From a virus: DNA of 5,813 nucleotides. A program made the position numbers and the translations under genes. The stretch is taken from IMG/VR virus record IMGVR_UViG_3300045988_025734. The stretch is one strand, 5' to 3'. Within the stretch, counting starts at the first letter, position 1, and each line of letters opens with the position of its first letter. This document shows, one piece after another, positions 1 to 5,813 of the stretch. Under the pieces are notes generated by a model. That model ran no database searches. It worked only from the letters and a program-made list of their open reading frames with translations, and was not told where the DNA came from.

Positions 1-89
1 ATTTTTTTTGTAACATAGCCTGCAACATATCTATAGGTCTCAGGCGTTGCTTGTGCTATCTGTATTTGACCCATGCCCCATAGATTGCA
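1..89. repeat. Terminal redundancy, copy 1 (identical to 5725..5813). This is the signature of a circular contig; unit genome 5,724 nt.
   Basis: Direct comparison: attttttttgtaacatagcctgcaacatatctataggtctcaggcgttgcttgtgctatctgtatttgacccatgccccatagattgca occurs at both ends. The Rep reading frame is continuous across the junction because 5724 is divisible by 3. Confidence 0.95.
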
Positions 90-658: not shown

Positions 659-1513
659 TCACTTTAAATAATCACCCGGCTTTCTTTCTTCTCCATAATC
701 TCCCGTTTTGTTTTGTGGCTTTGTGAATTCTTGCTTTCTTCCCTGCTTTGGCGCTGCCTTTTCAATTGCTTCTTCGGTTACCTTGTCGGTGCCTTTTCCA
801 ATTTCTGTCAGTGCTTTTGTCATTCCATAGGGTGTCAGGTGCGTTTGACTTAGCATTTGCTGCCAGCTTTGCGCAGCGTTGTACCAGTCTGATTTGCTCC
901 AGCTGCTGCTGCTGTATGCGTTTGGCACAAATCCTCCACTTCTGCTTACGCCTAGTGCACTGCTGCTTGCAAGTCCCATACTTGCGCCGCTTATCGTTGC
1001 CGCACTTCCTCCCGGTGTGCTTGCGCCGCCGTTTGCGAATGCCAGTATTGGATTGAGCCCGGCTTTTTTCATATCTTCTACGGCTCTTTGGTAGGCCGTG
1101 GAGCTCATTCTTTCCTGCCATTCTCTGTTTTTCATGGCTTCGGTGCTGTTGAAATTCATTGCCGCCGTGTTTTCGATGTGGTTATAGATACCCTGTGCGA
1201 TTGCGCCCAAGGTATTGTAGCCCATTTGCTTAAGCATGGAGCCGGTGTTAAATTGGCTTTGTCTCTGTGCTTCTCCTGCTTGGTATTGGTATGCTCCTTC
1301 CAGCCACTTTTGTACCTGTTCAATGTTCGTTCCTGATTGGCTTCCGCTTTCGGAATGTCCTCCGCCTTGGCTTACACTGCCGCCTTGGCTTTGGCTGTTT
1401 CCCGTCTGACCCCAACCGCCAAACATGCTTCCAATGTTTTTAGCCGCTCCCGCAATGCTTCCTATTGCGTTTGCTCCTGCGCCAACCATTGACATAATTG
1501 TTAATGGATCCAT
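659..1513 (-). CDS. VP2: Minor capsid / DNA pilot protein VP2 (284 aa).
   Basis: Gly/Ala-rich hydrophobic N-terminus (MVGAGANAIGSIAGAA), a Gly/Ser/Gln low-complexity linker, and the block REWQERMSSTAYQRAVEDMKKAGLNPILA. That block matches the conserved S(S/N)TAYQR...AGLNP signature I recall for gokushovirus VP2. It lies immediately downstream of VP1. ATG start at 1513. Confidence 0.85.
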   Translation of the reverse strand: MDPLTIMSMVGAGANAIGSIAGAAKNIGSMFGGWGQTGNSQSQGGSVSQGGGHSESGSQSGTNIEQVQKWLEGAYQYQAGEAQRQSQFNTGSMLKQMGYNTLGAIAQGIYNHIENTAAMNFNSTEAMKNREWQERMSSTAYQRAVEDMKKAGLNPILAFANGGASTPGGSAATISGASMGLASSSALGVSRSGGFVPNAYSSSSWSKSDWYNAAQSWQQMLSQTHLTPYGMTKALTEIGKGTDKVTEEAIEKAAPKQGRKQEFTKPQNKTGDYGEERKPGDYLK

Positions 1514-3231: not shown

Positions 3232-3628
3232 TCGTTTCCTCTTTCTGCACCTTTTCCGGTGCGTTTTCTTGAGCTTCCTTCAGCTCTTTCAGCTTCATGG
3301 CGTTTACCTGTGCCGTTGCCATCATCTGGTGATATTCGTGGATGTTCTGCGGCCATCCGGTAATATCCGTGATAGGTGTTTCTTCCTTGGATAGTGCACC
3401 TTGTGACAGGCTTCTCATGAATTCTGGGTCGAAAGATGCTTTTCGTACGATGCTTTTAATATCGCATTCATCAGCATAACTTTCAATCTCTGCCTGCACG
3501 TCGATGCTTTCAGTTTCCTGCAAGTACTCTTTGCCGTCTTTGTCCTTTGCCCAGACGTACTGTTTTCTTTCGTTTTTGCCCGATTCGGAAAAGAGGGGCT
3601 TTCGCCCCTCCTCATATCGTTTATTCAT
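3218..3628 (-). CDS. Putative internal scaffolding protein (VP3-like), 136 aa.
   Basis: A charged, helical protein with ADECDIKSIVRKASF, resembling the (E/D)xDIN.I..R motif I recall in gokushovirus VP3. It sits directly upstream of VP1 and overlaps it. SD GGGAGGG lies 9 nt before ATG 3628. Its start overlaps the orf79 stop (ATGAATAA). Confidence 0.55.
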   Translation of the reverse strand: MNKRYEEGRKPLFSESGKNERKQYVWAKDKDGKEYLQETESIDVQAEIESYADECDIKSIVRKASFDPEFMRSLSQGALSKEETPITDITGWPQNIHEYHQMMATAQVNAMKLKELKEAQENAPEKVQKEETSEQK

Positions 3629-3860
3629 GCGGTTTGCCCTCCCATACCTTTTCCGTGTCGTTCTGGAAGGTGCCCAGTTCGTCCTCGAAATTTGCCAGCT
3701 TAAAGCCGGTGTAATCCTGCGGACTCTGGCCGATGAAGGTTTTCTCGTCCTTTGCCATCACGTTGCACATGCGTGCAAAGGTTGCGTTGTTTTTGCTTTC
3801 GCCTACCCACGCATAGCATTTTGCCACGTTGTCCCAGATACCATAATAGGAATGAATCAT
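3621..3860 (-). CDS. Hypothetical protein orf79 (79 aa).
   Basis: ATG 3860 is preceded by AAAAAAAGGAGAAAAACA, a strong AAGGAG SD with 7-nt spacing. Its end overlaps the VP3-like start by 8 nt (coupled). No motif recognised. Confidence 0.7.
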   Translation of the reverse strand: MIHSYYGIWDNVAKCYAWVGESKNNATFARMCNVMAKDEKTFIGQSPQDYTGFKLANFEDELGTFQNDTEKVWEGKPHE

Positions 3861-3877
3861 TGTTTTTCTCCTTTTTT

Positions 3878-3979
3878 TTACAGCCGGATGCCACCGCGCA
3901 TGGGCTTCTGGCTCAGGTTAATACTTTTGGTTTTTCGTGCGGTCACGTTGAACATTCGCTTGTCTTTTCGCATGTTCAT
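3878..3979 (-). CDS. Small, highly basic peptide (33 aa); candidate DNA-binding/packaging protein (phiX174 J / gokushovirus ORF8-like).
   Basis: Manual translation gives MNMRKDKRMFNVTARKTKSINLSQKPMRGGIRL, with about 10 K/R in 33 residues. It fills the otherwise unexplained 117-nt gap between orf75 and orf79 in a genome with almost no other gaps. It is below the ORF-track length cutoff. The SD is weak (GTAAGAAA). Confidence 0.5.
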   Translation of the reverse strand: MNMRKDKRMFNVTARKTKSINLSQKPMRGGIRL

Positions 3980-3983
3980 TTTC

Positions 3984-4211
3984 TTACGATATGCCATTGT
4001 AAAATCCCCTTCTGATAAGTTCAAGTTCGATTGCATCTGCAAAGCTCTTTAAGTGCCAGATCTCGTCCAGCATCTTCTTTGCCGTTTCTATGTCGGCTAT
4101 CTTACGTAAGAGCTTATAGTTTGTGTCGATTTCCTTGTATTTCTTTTCAAGGATATTTCTCAGTTCTTCTTCGGTCTGGTCCCTTACGTTCCACGACTTG
4201 TTTAGGCTCAT
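3984..4211 (-). CDS. Hypothetical protein orf75 (75 aa), predicted all-helical and charged.
   Basis: ATG 4211 is preceded by AAGAAGGAGGACTAACCAAC, a very strong AAGGAGG SD. The protein is rich in K/E/L heptad-like sequence. No motif recognised. Confidence 0.7.
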   Translation of the reverse strand: MSLNKSWNVRDQTEEELRNILEKKYKEIDTNYKLLRKIADIETAKKMLDEIWHLKSFADAIELELIRRGFYNGIS

Positions 4212-4216
4212 GTTGG

Positions 4217-4333
4217 TTAGTCCTCCTTCTTGATTTCGTCATGCAGAGCATGATAAATCTCATCCAGCTTTTCCAAAATCTGCATCATGATGCGGATTGC
4301 CTGCTTTACGTCCTTGATGGAAATCAATGCCAT
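4217..4333 (-). CDS. Small hypothetical protein orf38 (38 aa), translationally coupled to the peptidase gene.
   Basis: Manual translation gives MALISIKDVKQAIRIMMQILEKLDEIYHALHDEIKKED. Its ATG (4333..4331) overlaps the peptidase TAA stop as TAATG. AAAGGGGTGA lies 5 nt upstream. The ORF fills the gap to orf75 exactly. It is below the ORF-track cutoff. Confidence 0.5.
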   Translation of the reverse strand: MALISIKDVKQAIRIMMQILEKLDEIYHALHDEIKKED

Positions 4334-4719
4334 TATGTCACCCCTTTTCTATATTTACTTTCGCGTACATCAATGTGTACGAAATTAGTATACCGGATGA
4401 TTCCGCCTTTGTCAAGTATGCTATCTGCATATTTTGCGACTTCTTTTGAACTGTGCCCTTTCACTACGATATCGGCGGCCATTCCTTTACAATGGAAGCT
4501 GTTTCCTGCTCCGTTGACTTTTTCGTTGTAGCTTGGTGTCCTATAGCCGCTGTTGACTTTGCAAGGTGCATTGAAATGATTTCTAATCTTCTCCAGTGTT
4601 TCGAGTAGCTCTGTGCATAGGAGCAGTTCAAAACTTCCGTCTTTACATGCAAATTCTTTCGCTTCAAAGTGCTCGCTCACCTTTCCGAAGTCTCTGTTGA
4701 TGAAGTTAATGTGTTTCAT
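4333..4719 (-). CDS. Zinc-dependent cell-wall peptidase, Peptidase_M15 (M15_3 / D-Ala-D-Ala carboxypeptidase-like fold), 128 aa; candidate endolysin.
   Basis: FEAKEFACKDG...NSGYRTPSYNEKVNGAGNSFHCKGMAADI...FVHIDVR matches the family pattern EF.C...SGYR...N..vGG...S.H..G.A.D...HvD.R. The H-x6-D and H-x-D zinc ligands are present. AAGGAG SD lies 9 nt before ATG 4719. The N-terminus MKHINFINRDFGKV has no signal peptide or TM segment. Confidence 0.9.
   Translation of the reverse strand: MKHINFINRDFGKVSEHFEAKEFACKDGSFELLLCTELLETLEKIRNHFNAPCKVNSGYRTPSYNEKVNGAGNSFHCKGMAADIVVKGHSSKEVAKYADSILDKGGIIRYTNFVHIDVRESKYRKGVT
4387..4415 (-). promoter_or_regulatory. Candidate internal promoter inside the 3' part of the peptidase gene.
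   Basis: The coding strand reads TTGACA (4415..4410), a 17-nt spacer, then TATACT (4392..4387). The -35 is 6/6 and the -10 is 5/6 with optimal spacing. It would drive orf38 and everything downstream without orf63 or the peptidase. It could also be a chance match within coding sequence. Confidence 0.35.
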
Positions 4720-4738
4720 GGTTTTTTTCTCCTTTGTT

Positions 4739-4930
4739 TTACATCCACATTATTTTGTTTTCATCTTCGTTTTCTAGCTGGTTGATTCTCTGTCTGGATA
4801 GCTCGCCACTTCGGTTCGTCCAGCACCTCAATTTTTTGTCGTAGGTATAAGGATAATAGATATACCCGTCAATATCTGAATGATAACATTTTACTTTTTT
4901 GTTTTCGGTGTATTCGTAGTGGCTTTTCAT
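4739..4930 (-). CDS. Hypothetical protein orf63 (63 aa), Tyr-rich N-terminal half and acidic C-terminal helix; first gene after the promoter.
   Basis: ATG 4930 is preceded by AGAGAGGTAAAAACA (GAGG SD, 8-nt spacing) and lies about 25 nt downstream of the consensus promoter -10. The stop is 19 nt before the peptidase ATG. No motif recognised. Confidence 0.65.
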   Translation of the reverse strand: MKSHYEYTENKKVKCYHSDIDGYIYYPYTYDKKLRCWTNRSGELSRQRINQLENEDENKIMWM

Positions 4931-4955: not shown

Positions 4956-4984
4956 ATTATAGCATTTCTCTTTACAATTGTCAA
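4956..4984 (-). promoter_or_regulatory. Main promoter: perfect -35, 17-nt spacer, extended -10.
   Basis: The coding strand reads TTGACA (4984..4979) attgtaaagagaaaTGc TATAAT (4961..4956). Both hexamers are consensus, the spacer is 17 nt, and a TGn extended -10 is present. It lies at the downstream end of the only long non-coding region, directly ahead of the gene array. Confidence 0.8.
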
Positions 4985-5045
4985 GTTTCAATTTGTACAA
5001 GGTTGCGCAGCAATTTTGTGCAAATTGGAACTTTCGCCGTTAGGC

Positions 5046-5210
5046 GTTTTCAACACTTTCCACATAGTTTTCAACTTTTCCACATTGTTAAACTTTAGCA
5101 CAACAGAGCGTTTCAACAATTCAACAAGGTATTCACAATTCTTTCAACACTGTTTTTGCTACTTTTTTCCGATGCTACGTTAAAAATACAGGTTTTCAAC
5201 TTTTTCACAG
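5046..5210. repeat. Iteron-like array: three 19-20-nt direct repeats plus TTCAAC half-sites.
   Basis: R1 5046..5065 is gttttcaacactttccacat, R2 5067..5085 is gttttcaacttttccacat, and R3 5192..5210 is gttttcaactttttcacag (17/19 identical to R2). Exact TTCAAC starts at 5049, 5070, 5112, 5120, 5143 and 5195, and a variant TTCACA at 5132. Six exact hexamers fall within 152 nt, against a chance expectation of about 0.04. Confidence 0.85.
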
Positions 5211-5214
5211 CCCC

Positions 5215-5250
5215 TACTACTACGACTACAACAAGTTATATAATAATATT
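5215..5250. repeat. (NAC)6 trinucleotide run (5215..5232) followed by an 18-nt pure A/T-rich block (5233..5250).
   Basis: tac tac tac gac tac aac, then aagttatataataatatt. It lies between the iteron array and the GC-rich tract. Confidence 0.7.
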
Positions 5251-5301
5251 ACGCGCGTGCATGTGCGCGCGTCTACGCGTGCGCGTGCGCGTGCGCGTGC
5301 G
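5251..5301. repeat. GC-rich alternating purine-pyrimidine tract containing about 4.5 tandem (G/A)CGCGT hexamers.
   Basis: acgcgcgtgcatgtgcgcgcgt (5251..5272) is 22 nt of strict R-Y alternation and imperfectly self-complementary. After a 2-nt break comes acgcgt gcgcgt gcgcgt gcgcgt gcg (5275..5301), 27 nt of strict R-Y alternation. Its GC content is far higher than the flanking AT-rich sequence. Confidence 0.9.
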
Positions 5302-5313
5302 AATAAACACCAA

Positions 5314-5347
5314 TAGCCTAGTACCTTACTTGATAGGTACTAGGCTA
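5314..5347 (-). terminator. Perfect 12-13-bp hairpin 17 nt downstream of the Rep stop; terminator and/or origin stem-loop.
   Basis: agcctagtacct (5315..5326) / aggtactaggct (5335..5346), plus t5314:a5347, with the 8-nt loop tacttgat. On the coding strand the stem is followed by UUGGUGUUUAUUC, an imperfect U-run. Confidence 0.6.
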
Positions 5348-5363
5348 GGTGACACCAAAAATC

Positions 5364-5813
5364 TTATAAGCCGCCCTTTTGGAGCTTTACAGACTTTTTG
5401 ATAACTCTTTCTTTCGTCTTTAAGTCCTTCTCATAGTCTGCATTTTCGTATTTGAGCCTGTTTTGCTCAATAACTGCTTTCTGTCGGTTCCTCTTGATTC
5501 TCCATAGCCTTTCAGGGTTTTCAGCTTCCATCATTTTTTCGTAGTATCGCGGAATCTGTGCTTTCTTTCCGTTGGTACATTGGATGTAGCCTTTTTGCCA
5601 TATTTCTTTTTTGTGCTCTTGATAATAGGCATCTCCAAGGCCCGGTTTCAGACTCATACATGCAAATGGCTTTTGCTGGCCCAGGTTATAGTATACATTT
5701 GCTTTCTGGCCGTCAATTTCGTACATTTTTTTTGTAACATAGCCTGCAACATATCTATAGGTCTCAGGCGTTGCTTGTGCTATCTGTATTTGACCCATGC
5801 CCCATAGATTGCA
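5364..5813 (-). CDS. VP4: Replication initiation protein VP4, C-terminal part. Same gene as 1..557; the full protein is about 305-318 aa in the circular genome.
   Basis: The frame is open from the window edge to the stop at 5366..5364. The track's Met at 5798 is internal (..NLWGMGQIQIAQATPETYRYVAGYVTKKMYEID..). Bases 5725..5813 duplicate 1..89. The basic C-terminal region (RIKRNRQKAVIEQNRLKYE) is typical of microvirus Reps. Confidence 0.9.
   Translation of the reverse strand, partial: CNLWGMGQIQIAQATPETYRYVAGYVTKKMYEIDGQKANVYYNLGQQKPFACMSLKPGLGDAYYQEHKKEIWQKGYIQCTNGKKAQIPRYYEKMMEAENPERLWRIKRNRQKAVIEQNRLKYENADYEKDLKTKERVIKKSVKLQKGGL
5725..5813. repeat. Terminal redundancy, copy 2 (identical to 1..89).
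   Basis: See copy 1. Confidence 0.95.

What the first reader, a model, noticed from the sequence alone, without database searches (positions are those of the whole stretch)
4333..4719. Endolysin-type M15 zinc peptidase in a microvirus, with no holin, signal peptide or E-like membrane protein
Characterised Microviridae lyse through single-gene amurins such as phiX174 E, which is overprinted, membrane-anchored and inhibits MraY. The lysis route of gokushoviruses is not established. This genome instead carries a canonical muralytic Peptidase_M15 gene with all zinc ligands intact, placed second behind a consensus promoter. The protein has no N-terminal signal or SAR sequence. Among all minus-strand ORFs, including alternate frames, I see no hydrophobic TM-like stretch except the Gly/Ala-rich N-terminus of VP2. 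Its route across the membrane is therefore unexplained. Three explanations are open: a novel release partner among the adjacent ORFans, a lysis role for the VP2 pilot protein, or an entry function in which the peptidase digests thick peptidoglycan. I recall M15-like genes being noted sporadically in metagenomic microviruses, so the presence is probably not unprecedented. The mechanism, as far as I know, is uncharacterised.
Basis: partly seen in the sequence, partly recalled or inferred. Interest (0 to 1): 0.72.

Follow-up and report, generated by a model that had tools for sequence, protein, structure and literature searches.

The report
Holin-less M15 wall peptidase in gokushovirus
A small circular ssDNA gut phage carries a cell-wall-cutting zinc peptidase taken long ago from Clostridia phage endolysins; it has no membrane-hole partner gene. 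This has been known since 2012, but how the enzyme reaches the wall is still unexplained.

Summary
Window 4719-4333 (minus strand) encodes a 128-aa Peptidase_M15_3 protein (Pfam E=6.6e-22). H76, D83 and H115 are invariant. It is the second gene behind a perfect TTGACA-17-TATAAT promoter. No TM-like segment exists in any coding-strand frame.

The window is a complete 5,724-nt circular gokushovirus, 94% identical to GenBank KT264792.

The finding is not new. Roux et al. 2012 described M15_3 genes in human-gut gokushoviruses and proposed an endolysin role. Hundreds of near-identical genes sit on ~5.7-kb contigs.

New comparative points:
- All microviral M15s form one group, separate from Clostridia and dsDNA-phage homologues. 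Those homologues are multidomain endolysins lying next to holins.
- The neighbouring ORFans are not M15-specific. orf38 and orf75 occur in M15-less relatives, and the orf63 slot is hypervariable.
- In 111 genomes, M15 (94) and a 38-aa single-TM ORF (15) never co-occur. The TM genomes form a single clade, so this counts as roughly one evolutionary event.

Best reading: a holin-independent lysis enzyme. Its route across the membrane is unresolved. Presence: already known. Mechanism: open.

The parts
4333..4719 (-). M15 gene: single-domain, 128-aa, 14.5-kDa zinc peptidase (Peptidase_M15_3, M15A-like) with pI 8.9, no signal peptide and no TM segment
   Evidence: Zn ligands H76/D83/H115 are invariant. 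The protein is 99.2% identical to an unannotated ORF in KT264792.
4956..4984 (-). Consensus sigma-70/sigma-A-type promoter (TTGACA-17-TATAAT, TG-extended -10) that drives orf63, M15 and the genes downstream
   Evidence: (12 of 12 matches) and the sequence. This is a consensus match only; function was not shown.
4739..4930 (-). orf63, a Tyr-rich soluble ORFan and the first gene behind the promoter. It occupies a hypervariable accessory slot and is not a consistent M15 partner.
   Evidence: No Pfam, PHROG or NCBIfam match. Homologues are found in only 5 of ~110 related genomes. Other genomes carry unrelated ORFan families in this position, with or without M15.
4381..4923 (-). Exchangeable cassette (orf63 plus M15 residues 1-113). 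It is the only segment with no homology to KX513877, which is otherwise ~89-90% identical.
   Evidence: blastn breakpoints. KX513877 carries an unrelated orf67 and an M15 that is 52% identical.
4217..4333 (-). orf38, a 38-aa acidic amphipathic-helix protein. Its ATG overlaps the M15 stop codon (TAATG). It is a core gene of the clade, not M15-specific.
   Evidence: Sequence. It is conserved in 116 loci. Homologues carrying the LDxIYH motif occur in M15-less genomes.
3984..4211 (-). orf75, a conserved soluble protein (WNVRDQ...ELELIRR). It is a core gene of the clade and is also present in M15-less relatives.
3878..3996 (-). VP8-like 39-aa basic protein (pI 12). In the M15-less sister clade, a 38-aa TM ORF begins at this gene's stop codon. 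In the window, only 17 nt separate this gene from VP5.
   Evidence: phrog_10695, E=1.8e-11.
659..1513 (-). VP2 pilot protein. Its Gly/Ala-rich N-terminus is the only weakly hydrophobic stretch of a real coding-strand gene, so it is the only in-genome candidate for a membrane-active factor. This role is inferred.
   Evidence: phrog_8742, E=3.8e-126; KD19 = 1.35.
5314..5347 (-). Terminator-like 13-bp hairpin followed by a T-rich tail, just after the VP4 stop codon. It closes the transcription unit that begins at the promoter.
1..89 (.). Terminal redundancy: positions 1-89 are identical to 5725-5813. The contig is a circular genome of 5,724 nt, and VP4 runs across the junction (596->1, then 5724->5364).

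Best explanation
The ORF encodes the bare catalytic module of an M15A/LAS-type zinc peptidoglycan peptidase. An ancestor of this gut gokushovirus lineage captured it once from a Clostridia-phage-type endolysin, and the lineage has kept it under purifying selection since.

The protein is made in the cytoplasm, apparently from the strong promoter at 4984-4956, and most likely serves as the virus's wall-degrading lysis enzyme. It has no dedicated holin, signal sequence or M15-specific partner gene. Its access to the wall must therefore depend on a holin-independent failure of the cytoplasmic membrane late in infection. That failure would be caused by core virus functions; the VP2 pilot protein is the only candidate in the genome.

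Shown: the identity and conservation of the enzyme, its origin, the absence of TM ORFs, and the non-specificity of the neighbouring genes. Inferred: the lysis role and the membrane route. The host is inferred to be a Gram-positive Clostridia member such as a Lachnospiraceae. In such a host no outer-membrane step would be needed.
For: - Family and active site.
- Abundance: 785 homologues at E<=1e-10. The best 120 are 71-98% identical, and about half of them have a longest contig of ~5.0-6.0 kb.
- Single acquisition: all microviral M15s form one block in an NJ tree, apart from bacterial and dsDNA-phage homologues. They share a C-terminal YRKG motif (108 of 115 microviral sequences, 0 of 79 bacterial) while diverging to ~45-50% identity with the catalytic residues intact.
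- Donors: the nearest non-microviral homologues are almost all from Clostridia. In (pro)phage contexts they are domains of modular endolysins (NAGPA+M15, Phage_lysozyme+M15, GH25+M15, M15+PG_binding_1). Those endolysins directly abut Phage_holin_4_1 or Hol44 holins.
- No TM ORF in the window, and none consistently in ~94 M15-bearing relatives.
- The sister clade that lost M15 carries a conserved 38-aa single-TM ORF: 15 genomes with it, 94 with M15, 0 with both. This fits two alternative lysis devices.
- Literature: Roux 2012 proposed the endolysin role. The isolated lytic microvirus vB_RpoMi-Mini has only four predicted genes, one of them an M15 peptidase. Ebor Gp7, a microviral peptidoglycan hydrolase of a different family, degrades peptidoglycan in vitro.
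- Host hints: strong Shine-Dalgarno sequences (AAAGGAG, AAGGAGG) and an extended -10. A related virus is joined to Lachnospiraceae feoB in contig L004.
Against: - No experiment on any microviral M15_3 protein was found.
- The membrane route is pure inference. The VP2 N-terminus scores below a TM threshold (1.35). A phiX174 H-like tube would be too narrow for a 14.5-kDa globule (my own knowledge, not tested here).
- The M15/TM exclusivity maps to one clade on the VP1 tree (Fitch minimum 3 changes, two of them losses). It is roughly one evolutionary event, not a statistical association.
- Two relatives (MG945780, MT135259) have neither gene, so neither gene may be essential.
- The fold search gave only weak support. 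The best hits are Hedgehog N-domains and VanXY, at E>=0.017 and TM ~0.4. The model has mean pLDDT 78.5.
- The host assignment rests on an old HGT signal and on two contig junctions that could be chimeras.
Confidence: 0.5

Rival explanations
1. Enzymatic amurin. The peptidase never leaves the cytoplasm. It removes the terminal D-Ala, or cuts the stem peptide, of UDP-MurNAc-pentapeptide or lipid II on the inner face of the membrane. This starves D,D-transpeptidation, and growing cells lyse as they do with phiX174 E or beta-lactams. No holin would be needed.
For: - No holin, signal sequence or TM ORF.
- The closest solved structure by sequence is 1LBU, the Streptomyces albus Zn D-Ala-D-Ala (muramoyl-pentapeptide) carboxypeptidase, E=6.5e-10.
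- VanXY D,D-pentapeptidases appear among the weak fold hits.
- M15 is replaced by a small TM protein in the sister clade, which fits two routes to blocking wall synthesis.
- From established knowledge: cytoplasmic M15 enzymes (VanX, VanXY, E. faecium DdcY) do act on cytoplasmic precursors. All characterised microvirus and levivirus lysis proteins act on wall synthesis.
Against: - The nearest homologues (45-58% identity) are catalytic domains of holin-associated, multidomain endolysins that act on mature wall.
- NCBIfam's only family match is the cross-link endopeptidase MepK, far below its cut-off.
- The 1LBU match covers only 46 residues around the zinc site.
- A strong promoter and a strong SD would give early, high expression. 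That is awkward for a precursor-depleting toxin.
Confidence: 0.15
2. Entry enzyme. M15 is packaged in, or attached to, the virion. It digests a path through thick peptidoglycan during DNA delivery, as a virion-associated hydrolase rather than a lysis protein.
For: - The inferred Gram-positive (Clostridia) host would present a wall thicker than the capsid.
- Ebor Gp7 was detected in virions in trace amounts.
- The protein is a bare catalytic domain with no wall-binding domain.
Against: - The sister clade, with the same core genes, manages without any peptidoglycan hydrolase.
- The gene lies in the accessory slot, not among the structural genes.
- Donor homologues are endolysins next to holins, not tail or virion proteins.
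- No structural role is known for any extra protein in T=1 gokushovirus capsids (my knowledge).
Confidence: 0.1
3. An adjacent ORFan (orf63, orf38 or orf75) is a dedicated non-TM release factor or chaperone for the peptidase. This would resemble mycobacteriophage Ms6 Gp1 with LysA.
For: - The orf38 start codon overlaps the M15 stop codon, and orf38 follows M15 in essentially every M15-bearing genome.
- orf63 and M15 were exchanged as one cassette relative to KX513877.
- orf38 is a strongly amphipathic helix, muH 2.15.
Against: - orf38-like and orf75-like genes are present in relatives that lack M15.
- orf63 occurs in only 5 related genomes. The slot holds at least six unrelated ORFan families, which are shared with M15-less genomes and absent from dsDNA-phage M15 loci.
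- orf38 is acidic (pI 5.5), unlike membrane-disrupting cationic peptides.
Confidence: 0.07
4. A membrane protein was missed. An antisense, overprinted or non-canonically initiated ORF supplies the holin or amurin.
For: - The plus (antisense) strand carries long hydrophobic ORFs: 3504-4052 (182 aa) and 4031-4531 (166 aa).
- Roux 2012 noted a complementary-strand ORF beside a microviral peptidase.
- An overprinted +1 ORF in VP1 (2024-1896) is TM-like in two relatives.
Against: - Long antisense ORFs are generic in this clade. The median longest is 162 aa in 111 genomes, and their positions vary. This is expected from an A-poor antisense strand.
- The VP1 +1 ORF reaches KD>=1.6 in only 2 of 104 genomes and scores 0.84 in the window.
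- The poly-Val stretch has no start codon.
- No microvirus is known to express complementary-strand genes (Kirchberger 2022 removes them as artefacts).
Confidence: 0.05

Closest known systems
M15_3 peptidase genes of human-gut Gokushovirinae and Alpavirinae (Roux et al. 2012, PLoS One 7:e40418). GenBank examples: KX513877 'peptidase M15' and KT264792 (unannotated).
   Same: Same protein family, same virus subfamily and same biome. The genomic slot is the same, between VP4 and VP5. The protein is 99.2% identical to the ORF in KT264792, and the whole genome is 94% identical.
   Different: Nothing essential differs. This window is another isolate of a described type. The published work did not examine the missing holin or the flanking ORFans.
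Modular M15_3 endolysins of Clostridia (pro)phages, with Phage_holin_4_1 or Hol44 holins
   Same: The catalytic domain is homologous (45-58% identity) with an identical zinc site. These are presumably the donor lineage.
   Different: Those enzymes carry a second catalytic or wall-binding domain and sit next to a holin. The microviral gene is the catalytic domain alone, has no holin, and has its own C-terminal YRKGV tail.
phiX174 E and other single-gene lysis proteins (amurins)
   Same: Both occur in a small ssDNA phage that achieves lysis without a holin-endolysin-spanin cassette.
   Different: E is an overprinted membrane protein that inhibits MraY and has no enzymatic activity. Here the candidate is a soluble, non-overprinted, horizontally acquired enzyme. 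No E-like ORF exists in the window.
Streptomyces albus G zinc D-Ala-D-Ala carboxypeptidase (PDB 1LBU; MEROPS M15A) and E. coli MepK (YcbK)
   Same: The zinc-binding core motif (SxHxxGxAxD) is shared. 1LBU is the best PDB sequence hit (E=6.5e-10), and MepK is the only NCBIfam family hit.
   Different: Both are secreted or periplasmic cellular enzymes with export signals. The match to each is partial and far below equivalog cut-offs (42 bits against 185 for MepK).
Peptidase or lysin genes of other isolated microviruses: Occultatumvirinae roseophages, vB_RpoMi-Mini, phiHBP1 and Ebor Gp7
   Same: Each is an accessory wall hydrolase in a microvirus and is presumed to act in lysis.
   Different: They belong to different microvirus families with Gram-negative hosts. 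Ebor's enzyme is a different fold family, and Ebor also encodes a 45-aa predicted membrane protein.

Membership tests
Peptidase M15 (clan MD / LAS; Pfam PF08291 Peptidase_M15_3) | Profile match above the curated gathering score | tested here: met
   78.1 bits against a cut-off of 23.2, E=6.6e-22, covering profile positions 2-108 of 108. PF05951 scores 30.1 against 27.
Peptidase M15 (clan MD / LAS; Pfam PF08291 Peptidase_M15_3) | Zinc ligand triad His-x6-Asp ... His, plus the catalytic Asp of the HxD motif | tested here: met
   H76, D83, H115 and D117 are present. They are invariant in alignments A3 and A4.
Peptidase M15 (clan MD / LAS; Pfam PF08291 Peptidase_M15_3) | Hedgehog/DD-peptidase fold | tested here: inconclusive
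   The AF2 model has mean pLDDT 78.5. The best Foldseek PDB hits are Hedgehog N-terminal domains (E=0.017-0.1, TM ~0.4) and VanXY (E 0.4-0.8). This is the expected fold class, but the scores are below significance.
Peptidase M15 (clan MD / LAS; Pfam PF08291 Peptidase_M15_3) | Hydrolysis of peptidoglycan peptide bonds | not testable with these tools
   Needs a zymogram or muropeptide analysis.
Canonical holin-endolysin lysis cassette | A small membrane protein (holin) encoded with the endolysin | tested here: not met
   No coding-strand ORF or stop-to-stop segment has a usable 19-aa window with KD>=1.6. The same holds in ~94 M15-bearing relatives. By contrast, dsDNA-phage homologues do have adjacent holins.
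Signal-peptide or SAR endolysins | N-terminal hydrophobic signal or signal-anchor-release segment | tested here: not met
   The N-terminus is MKHINFINRDFGKVSEHFEAKEF. The highest KD19 in the whole protein is 0.63. SignalP was not available.
phiX174 E-type single-gene lysis protein (amurin) | Small membrane-anchored protein, typically overprinted in another gene | tested here: not met
   All alternate frames were scanned. The only recurrent overprinted ORF, in VP1 at 2024-1896, scores KD 0.84 here and reaches >=1.6 in 2 of 104 relatives.
Gokushovirinae (Microviridae) | VP1 (Phage_F), VP2, VP3 scaffold, VP4 Rep and VP5 on one strand of a ~4.5-6 kb circular genome | tested here: met
   The genome is 94% identical in nucleotides to Gokushovirus WZ-2015a KT264792.

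The most novel reading that the evidence does not exclude
The microviral M15 peptidase is an enzymatic single-gene lysis protein. It stays in the cytoplasm and destroys the D-Ala-D-Ala end (or the stem peptide) of peptidoglycan precursors, so it blocks wall synthesis without ever crossing the membrane. The 38-aa TM protein of the sister clade would then be a conventional amurin that replaced it. This would make M15 the first catalytic amurin. It would also explain why microviruses from several families carry M15 peptidases and no holin.
Probability: 0.13. Interest if true: 0.85.

Novelty: already known. Interest (0 to 1): 0.38.

Why it matters
The gene itself is a textbook-level annotation for gut gokushoviruses, so this window adds no new kind of element.

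What remains open is how gokushoviruses lyse their hosts, and how a soluble wall peptidase can work without a holin. That question now has concrete, cheap tests:
- M15 alone, against M15 with VP2.
- The 38-aa TM protein of the sister clade.
- A precursor-pool assay.

If the host is indeed a Clostridia member, these abundant gut phages would be Gram-positive-infecting microviruses, for which there is still almost no direct evidence. A compact holin-independent lysin would also interest enzybiotic work.

Tried and rejected
- Antisense (plus-strand) hydrophobic ORFs as hidden holins: rejected. Long antisense ORFs are generic and differently placed in 111 related genomes.
- Overprinted +1 ORF inside VP1 (2024-1896) as an E-like protein: rejected. 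It is not hydrophobic in the window or in most relatives.
- Poly-Val stretch at ~5232: this is a translation of a short GTC/GTA triplet run in the intergenic region, with no start codon.
- orf63, orf38 and orf75 as M15-specific partners: rejected on distribution. Pfam, PHROG and NCBIfam give them no function.
- Search of 185,579 species genomes for an integrated relative, to name the host: only one microvirus contig was found, binned in a 'Bacteroides sp. CAG:545' MAG with VP1 at 41% identity. No prophage was found.
- Two longer contigs join related virus DNA to bacterial or mobile-element DNA (L003, L004). I could not tell integration from chimera. The L004 junction has 6-nt microhomology.
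- Structure search against the PDB: only weak hits of the expected fold class.
- Literature search for an experimental account of how microviral peptidases are released: none found.

Full report
WHAT THE WINDOW IS

The first 89 bases are identical to the last 89. The contig is therefore a circular genome of 5,724 nt.

All genes lie on the minus strand, in this order:
- VP1 (3231-1552)
- VP2 (1513-659)
- VP4/Rep (596->1, then 5724->5364; intact once the circle is closed)
- a ~430-nt intergenic region
- orf63 (4930-4739)
- the M15 gene (4719-4333)
- orf38 (4333-4217)
- orf75 (4211-3984)
- a VP8-like basic protein (3996-3878)
- VP5 (3860-3621)
- VP3 (3628-3218)

VP1, VP3 and VP5 match Phage_F, Chlamy_scaf and Phage_ORF5. 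VP2 and VP4 match the PHROG pilot and replication-initiator families.

The genome is 94% identical over its full length to Gokushovirus WZ-2015a KT264792, from human faeces. It is ~89-91% identical over 86% of its length to Human gut gokushovirus KX513877.

THE OBSERVATION

The 128-aa ORF is a bona fide Peptidase_M15_3 protein (78 bits, E=6.6e-22) and matches PHROG 894 'endolysin' (E=1e-36). H76, D83, H115 and D117 are invariant across microviral and non-microviral homologues.

By sequence, the closest solved structure is the Streptomyces albus zinc D-Ala-D-Ala carboxypeptidase 1LBU. NCBIfam gives only a sub-threshold match to the endopeptidase MepK. An AlphaFold model (pLDDT 78.5) finds Hedgehog N-domains and VanXY as its best PDB neighbours. 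That is the expected fold class, but the scores are not significant.

The promoter claim holds. A 12/12 TTGACA-17-TATAAT site with a TG extension lies at 4984-4956, just upstream of orf63. Good Shine-Dalgarno sequences precede M15 and orf75.

The 'no membrane protein' claim also holds on hydropathy. No stop-to-stop segment in any coding-strand frame has a usable 19-residue window above 1.6. The VP2 N-terminus reaches only 1.35, and the peptidase itself only 0.63.

IS IT NEW?

No.
- Roux et al. 2012 reported M15_3 genes in five human-gut gokushoviruses and six alpaviruses. They showed the genes were horizontally acquired, linked the gokushoviral ones to Clostridiales, and proposed an endolysin role.
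- Kirchberger et al. [quoted passage not shown]
- Later isolates also carry such genes: Occultatumvirinae roseophages, vB_RpoMi-Mini with only four predicted genes, and phiHBP1. A different lysin, Ebor Gp7, has been shown to degrade peptidoglycan.
- In the large protein collection there are 785 homologues at E<=1e-10. The best 120 are 71-98% identical, and about half of them have a longest contig of ~5.0-6.0 kb.
- The KT264792 copy is 99.2% identical but unannotated.

WHERE THE GENE CAME FROM

A scan of one genome per bacterial species returned 80 loci, nearly all Clostridia: Lachnospiraceae, Oscillospiraceae, Faecalibacterium, Lacrimispora and others. Identities were 43-58%. Only one of the 80 loci was itself a microvirus contig.

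In viral and bacterial contigs, these homologues are domains of modular endolysins: NAGPA+M15, Phage_lysozyme+M15, GH25+M15 and M15+PG_binding_1. They directly abut Phage_holin_4_1 or Hol44 holins.

In an NJ tree, all microviral M15 sequences form one block, separate from these. They also share a private C-terminal YRKG(V) motif, present in 108 of 115 microviral sequences and 0 of 79 bacterial ones. Within the block they have diverged to ~45-50% identity with the active site intact.

I read this as one old capture of the catalytic domain alone, followed by long retention under selection. Cassettes have also been exchanged within the lineage. Against KX513877, the only non-homologous segment of the window is 4381-4923, which is orf63 plus M15 residues 1-113.

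THE NEIGHBOURS ARE NOT M15-SPECIFIC PARTNERS

orf38 (LDxIYH motif) and orf75 (WNVRDQ...ELELIRR) follow M15 in every M15-bearing genome I examined. They are also present in relatives that have no M15.

The orf63 position is a hypervariable slot. The window's orf63 has homologues in only five related genomes. At least six unrelated ORFan families occupy that position, several of them in both M15-bearing and M15-less genomes. None occurs beside the dsDNA-phage M15 genes.

A LEAD FROM THE SISTER CLADE

Relatives that keep orf75 and VP8 but lack M15 carry a conserved 32-38-aa single-TM ORF. An example is VNVIITVGAGATIIAMCSATFALIVMGIDIVKNWRKNK, with KD 2.0-2.45. Its GTG start overlaps the VP8 stop codon, and the ORF is wedged in front of VP5. 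In the window, only 17 nt lie between VP8 and VP5.

Of 111 genomes, 94 have M15 only, 15 have the TM ORF only, 2 have neither and none has both.

This fits two interchangeable lysis devices and an M15 that needs no TM partner. The limitation is that the TM genomes form one contiguous clade on the VP1 tree. The pattern therefore reflects about one replacement event, not a statistical association. The two genomes with neither gene, and the many classical gokushoviruses without either, also suggest that some core function contributes to lysis.

HOW IT MOST LIKELY WORKS

I commit to a lysis enzyme that acts without a dedicated holin (confidence ~0.5). It would be expressed constitutively with the rest of the genome and would accumulate in the cytoplasm. 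It would reach the wall when the membrane fails late in infection. VP2, the DNA-pilot protein with a Gly/Ala-rich N-terminus, is the only genome-encoded candidate for causing that failure. This step is inference only.

A Gram-positive Clostridia host would remove the need for any outer-membrane step. The evidence for such a host is:
- the donor signal;
- Firmicutes-type holins beside the homologues;
- the SD and extended -10 usage;
- a contig in which a related virus (M15 76% identical) is joined, as a 1.8-copy concatemer, to Lachnospiraceae feoB at a 6-nt microhomology.

The junction could be a chimera.

The most interesting rival, at ~0.13-0.15, is that the enzyme acts on cytoplasmic precursors as a catalytic amurin. 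Cytoplasmic M15 enzymes such as VanX, VanXY and DdcY do this (established knowledge). The M15A holotype is a muramoyl-pentapeptide carboxypeptidase. Against this reading stands the close kinship to holin-served endolysin domains. A virion or entry role (~0.1), an ORFan partner (~0.07) and a missed membrane ORF (~0.05) are less likely, for the reasons given under each rival.

VERDICT

- Observation: confirmed.
- Interpretation: partly supported.
- Presence: already known.
- Mechanism: genuinely open, and made more testable by the M15/TM-ORF contrast.

Noticed in passing
L102 (KT264788) 4756-4872; also L103-L105, L108, L109 and L155-L166: A conserved 32-38-aa single-TM ORF (KD 2.0-2.45, basic C-terminal tail) has a GTG/TTG start overlapping the VP8 stop codon. 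It is found only in relatives that lack M15: 15 of 111 surveyed genomes, never together with M15. It is unannotated in GenBank and is a candidate gokushovirus lysis protein.
   Followed up: partly
window 4381-4923, compared with KX513877 (L002 3732-4329): A 543-nt cassette (orf63 plus most of M15) is replaced by an unrelated orf67 plus a 52%-identical M15, in a genome that is otherwise ~89-90% identical. The breakpoints lie at the orf63 start codon and in the conserved M15 C-terminus.
   Followed up: yes
window 1-89 and 5725-5813; VP4 at 596-1 / 5724-5364: An exact 89-nt terminal repeat shows a circular 5,724-nt genome. The Rep gene looks truncated in the linear window but is intact across the junction.
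   Followed up: yes
window ~4985-5205 (minus strand): Six or seven copies of GTTGAAA(A)C lie in the VP4-orf63 intergenic region. The region is conserved in relatives, where it shows up as spurious 'LLKHSVVLKFNNVEMLKT' ORFs. These may be Rep- or regulator-binding repeats or part of the origin.
   Followed up: no
window 5215-5300 (minus strand): Low-complexity tracts: an alternating CG/CA run (gcacgcgcacgcgcacgcgc...) and a short GTC/GTA triplet run. Both lie just downstream of a 13-bp terminator-like hairpin (5347-5314). Their function is unknown.
   Followed up: no
window 4387-4415 (minus strand): A second near-consensus promoter (TTGACA-17-TATACT, 11 of 12 matches) lies inside the 3' end of the M15 gene, upstream of orf38.
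   Followed up: no
L004 3896-4279 (ENA ERZ15610145 NODE_3616, 14,362 nt): A gokushovirus with a 76%-identical M15 is joined, as ~1.8 tandem copies, to a Lachnospiraceae locus inside feoB. The join is at a 6-nt microhomology (AGGAAG) with the VP1 3' end. An uninterrupted feoB exists on another contig (L247). This is either integration or a chimera.
   Followed up: partly
L003 9880-10416 (ENA ERZ27260629 k99_7785, 42,252 nt): The contig end carries M15 (from residue ~13, 90% identical) and the start of orf38, directly after a Tn916-type integrase and Xis in a dsDNA mobile-element or phage context. This is either a chimera or a capture or insertion event.
   Followed up: partly
window 3504-4052 and 4031-4531 (plus strand): Two long hydrophobic antisense ORFs (182 and 166 aa). 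Such ORFs are generic in this clade: the median longest is 162 aa, and their positions vary. This is consistent with the A-poor antisense strand rather than with genes.
   Followed up: yes
L102, L104, L105, L106 and L109, just downstream of VP4: A 27-aa hydrophobic mini-ORF (MLNTMNFYPWNDIFCFILMLILLWITC) recurs in the M15-less clade. It includes one genome (MG945780) that lacks both M15 and the 38-aa TM ORF.
   Followed up: no
L001 (KT264792.1), record positions 4230-4613: The GenBank record of the closest relative annotates only VP1-VP5. Its 99%-identical M15 gene and the orf38, orf75 and VP8 genes are unannotated.
   Followed up: yes
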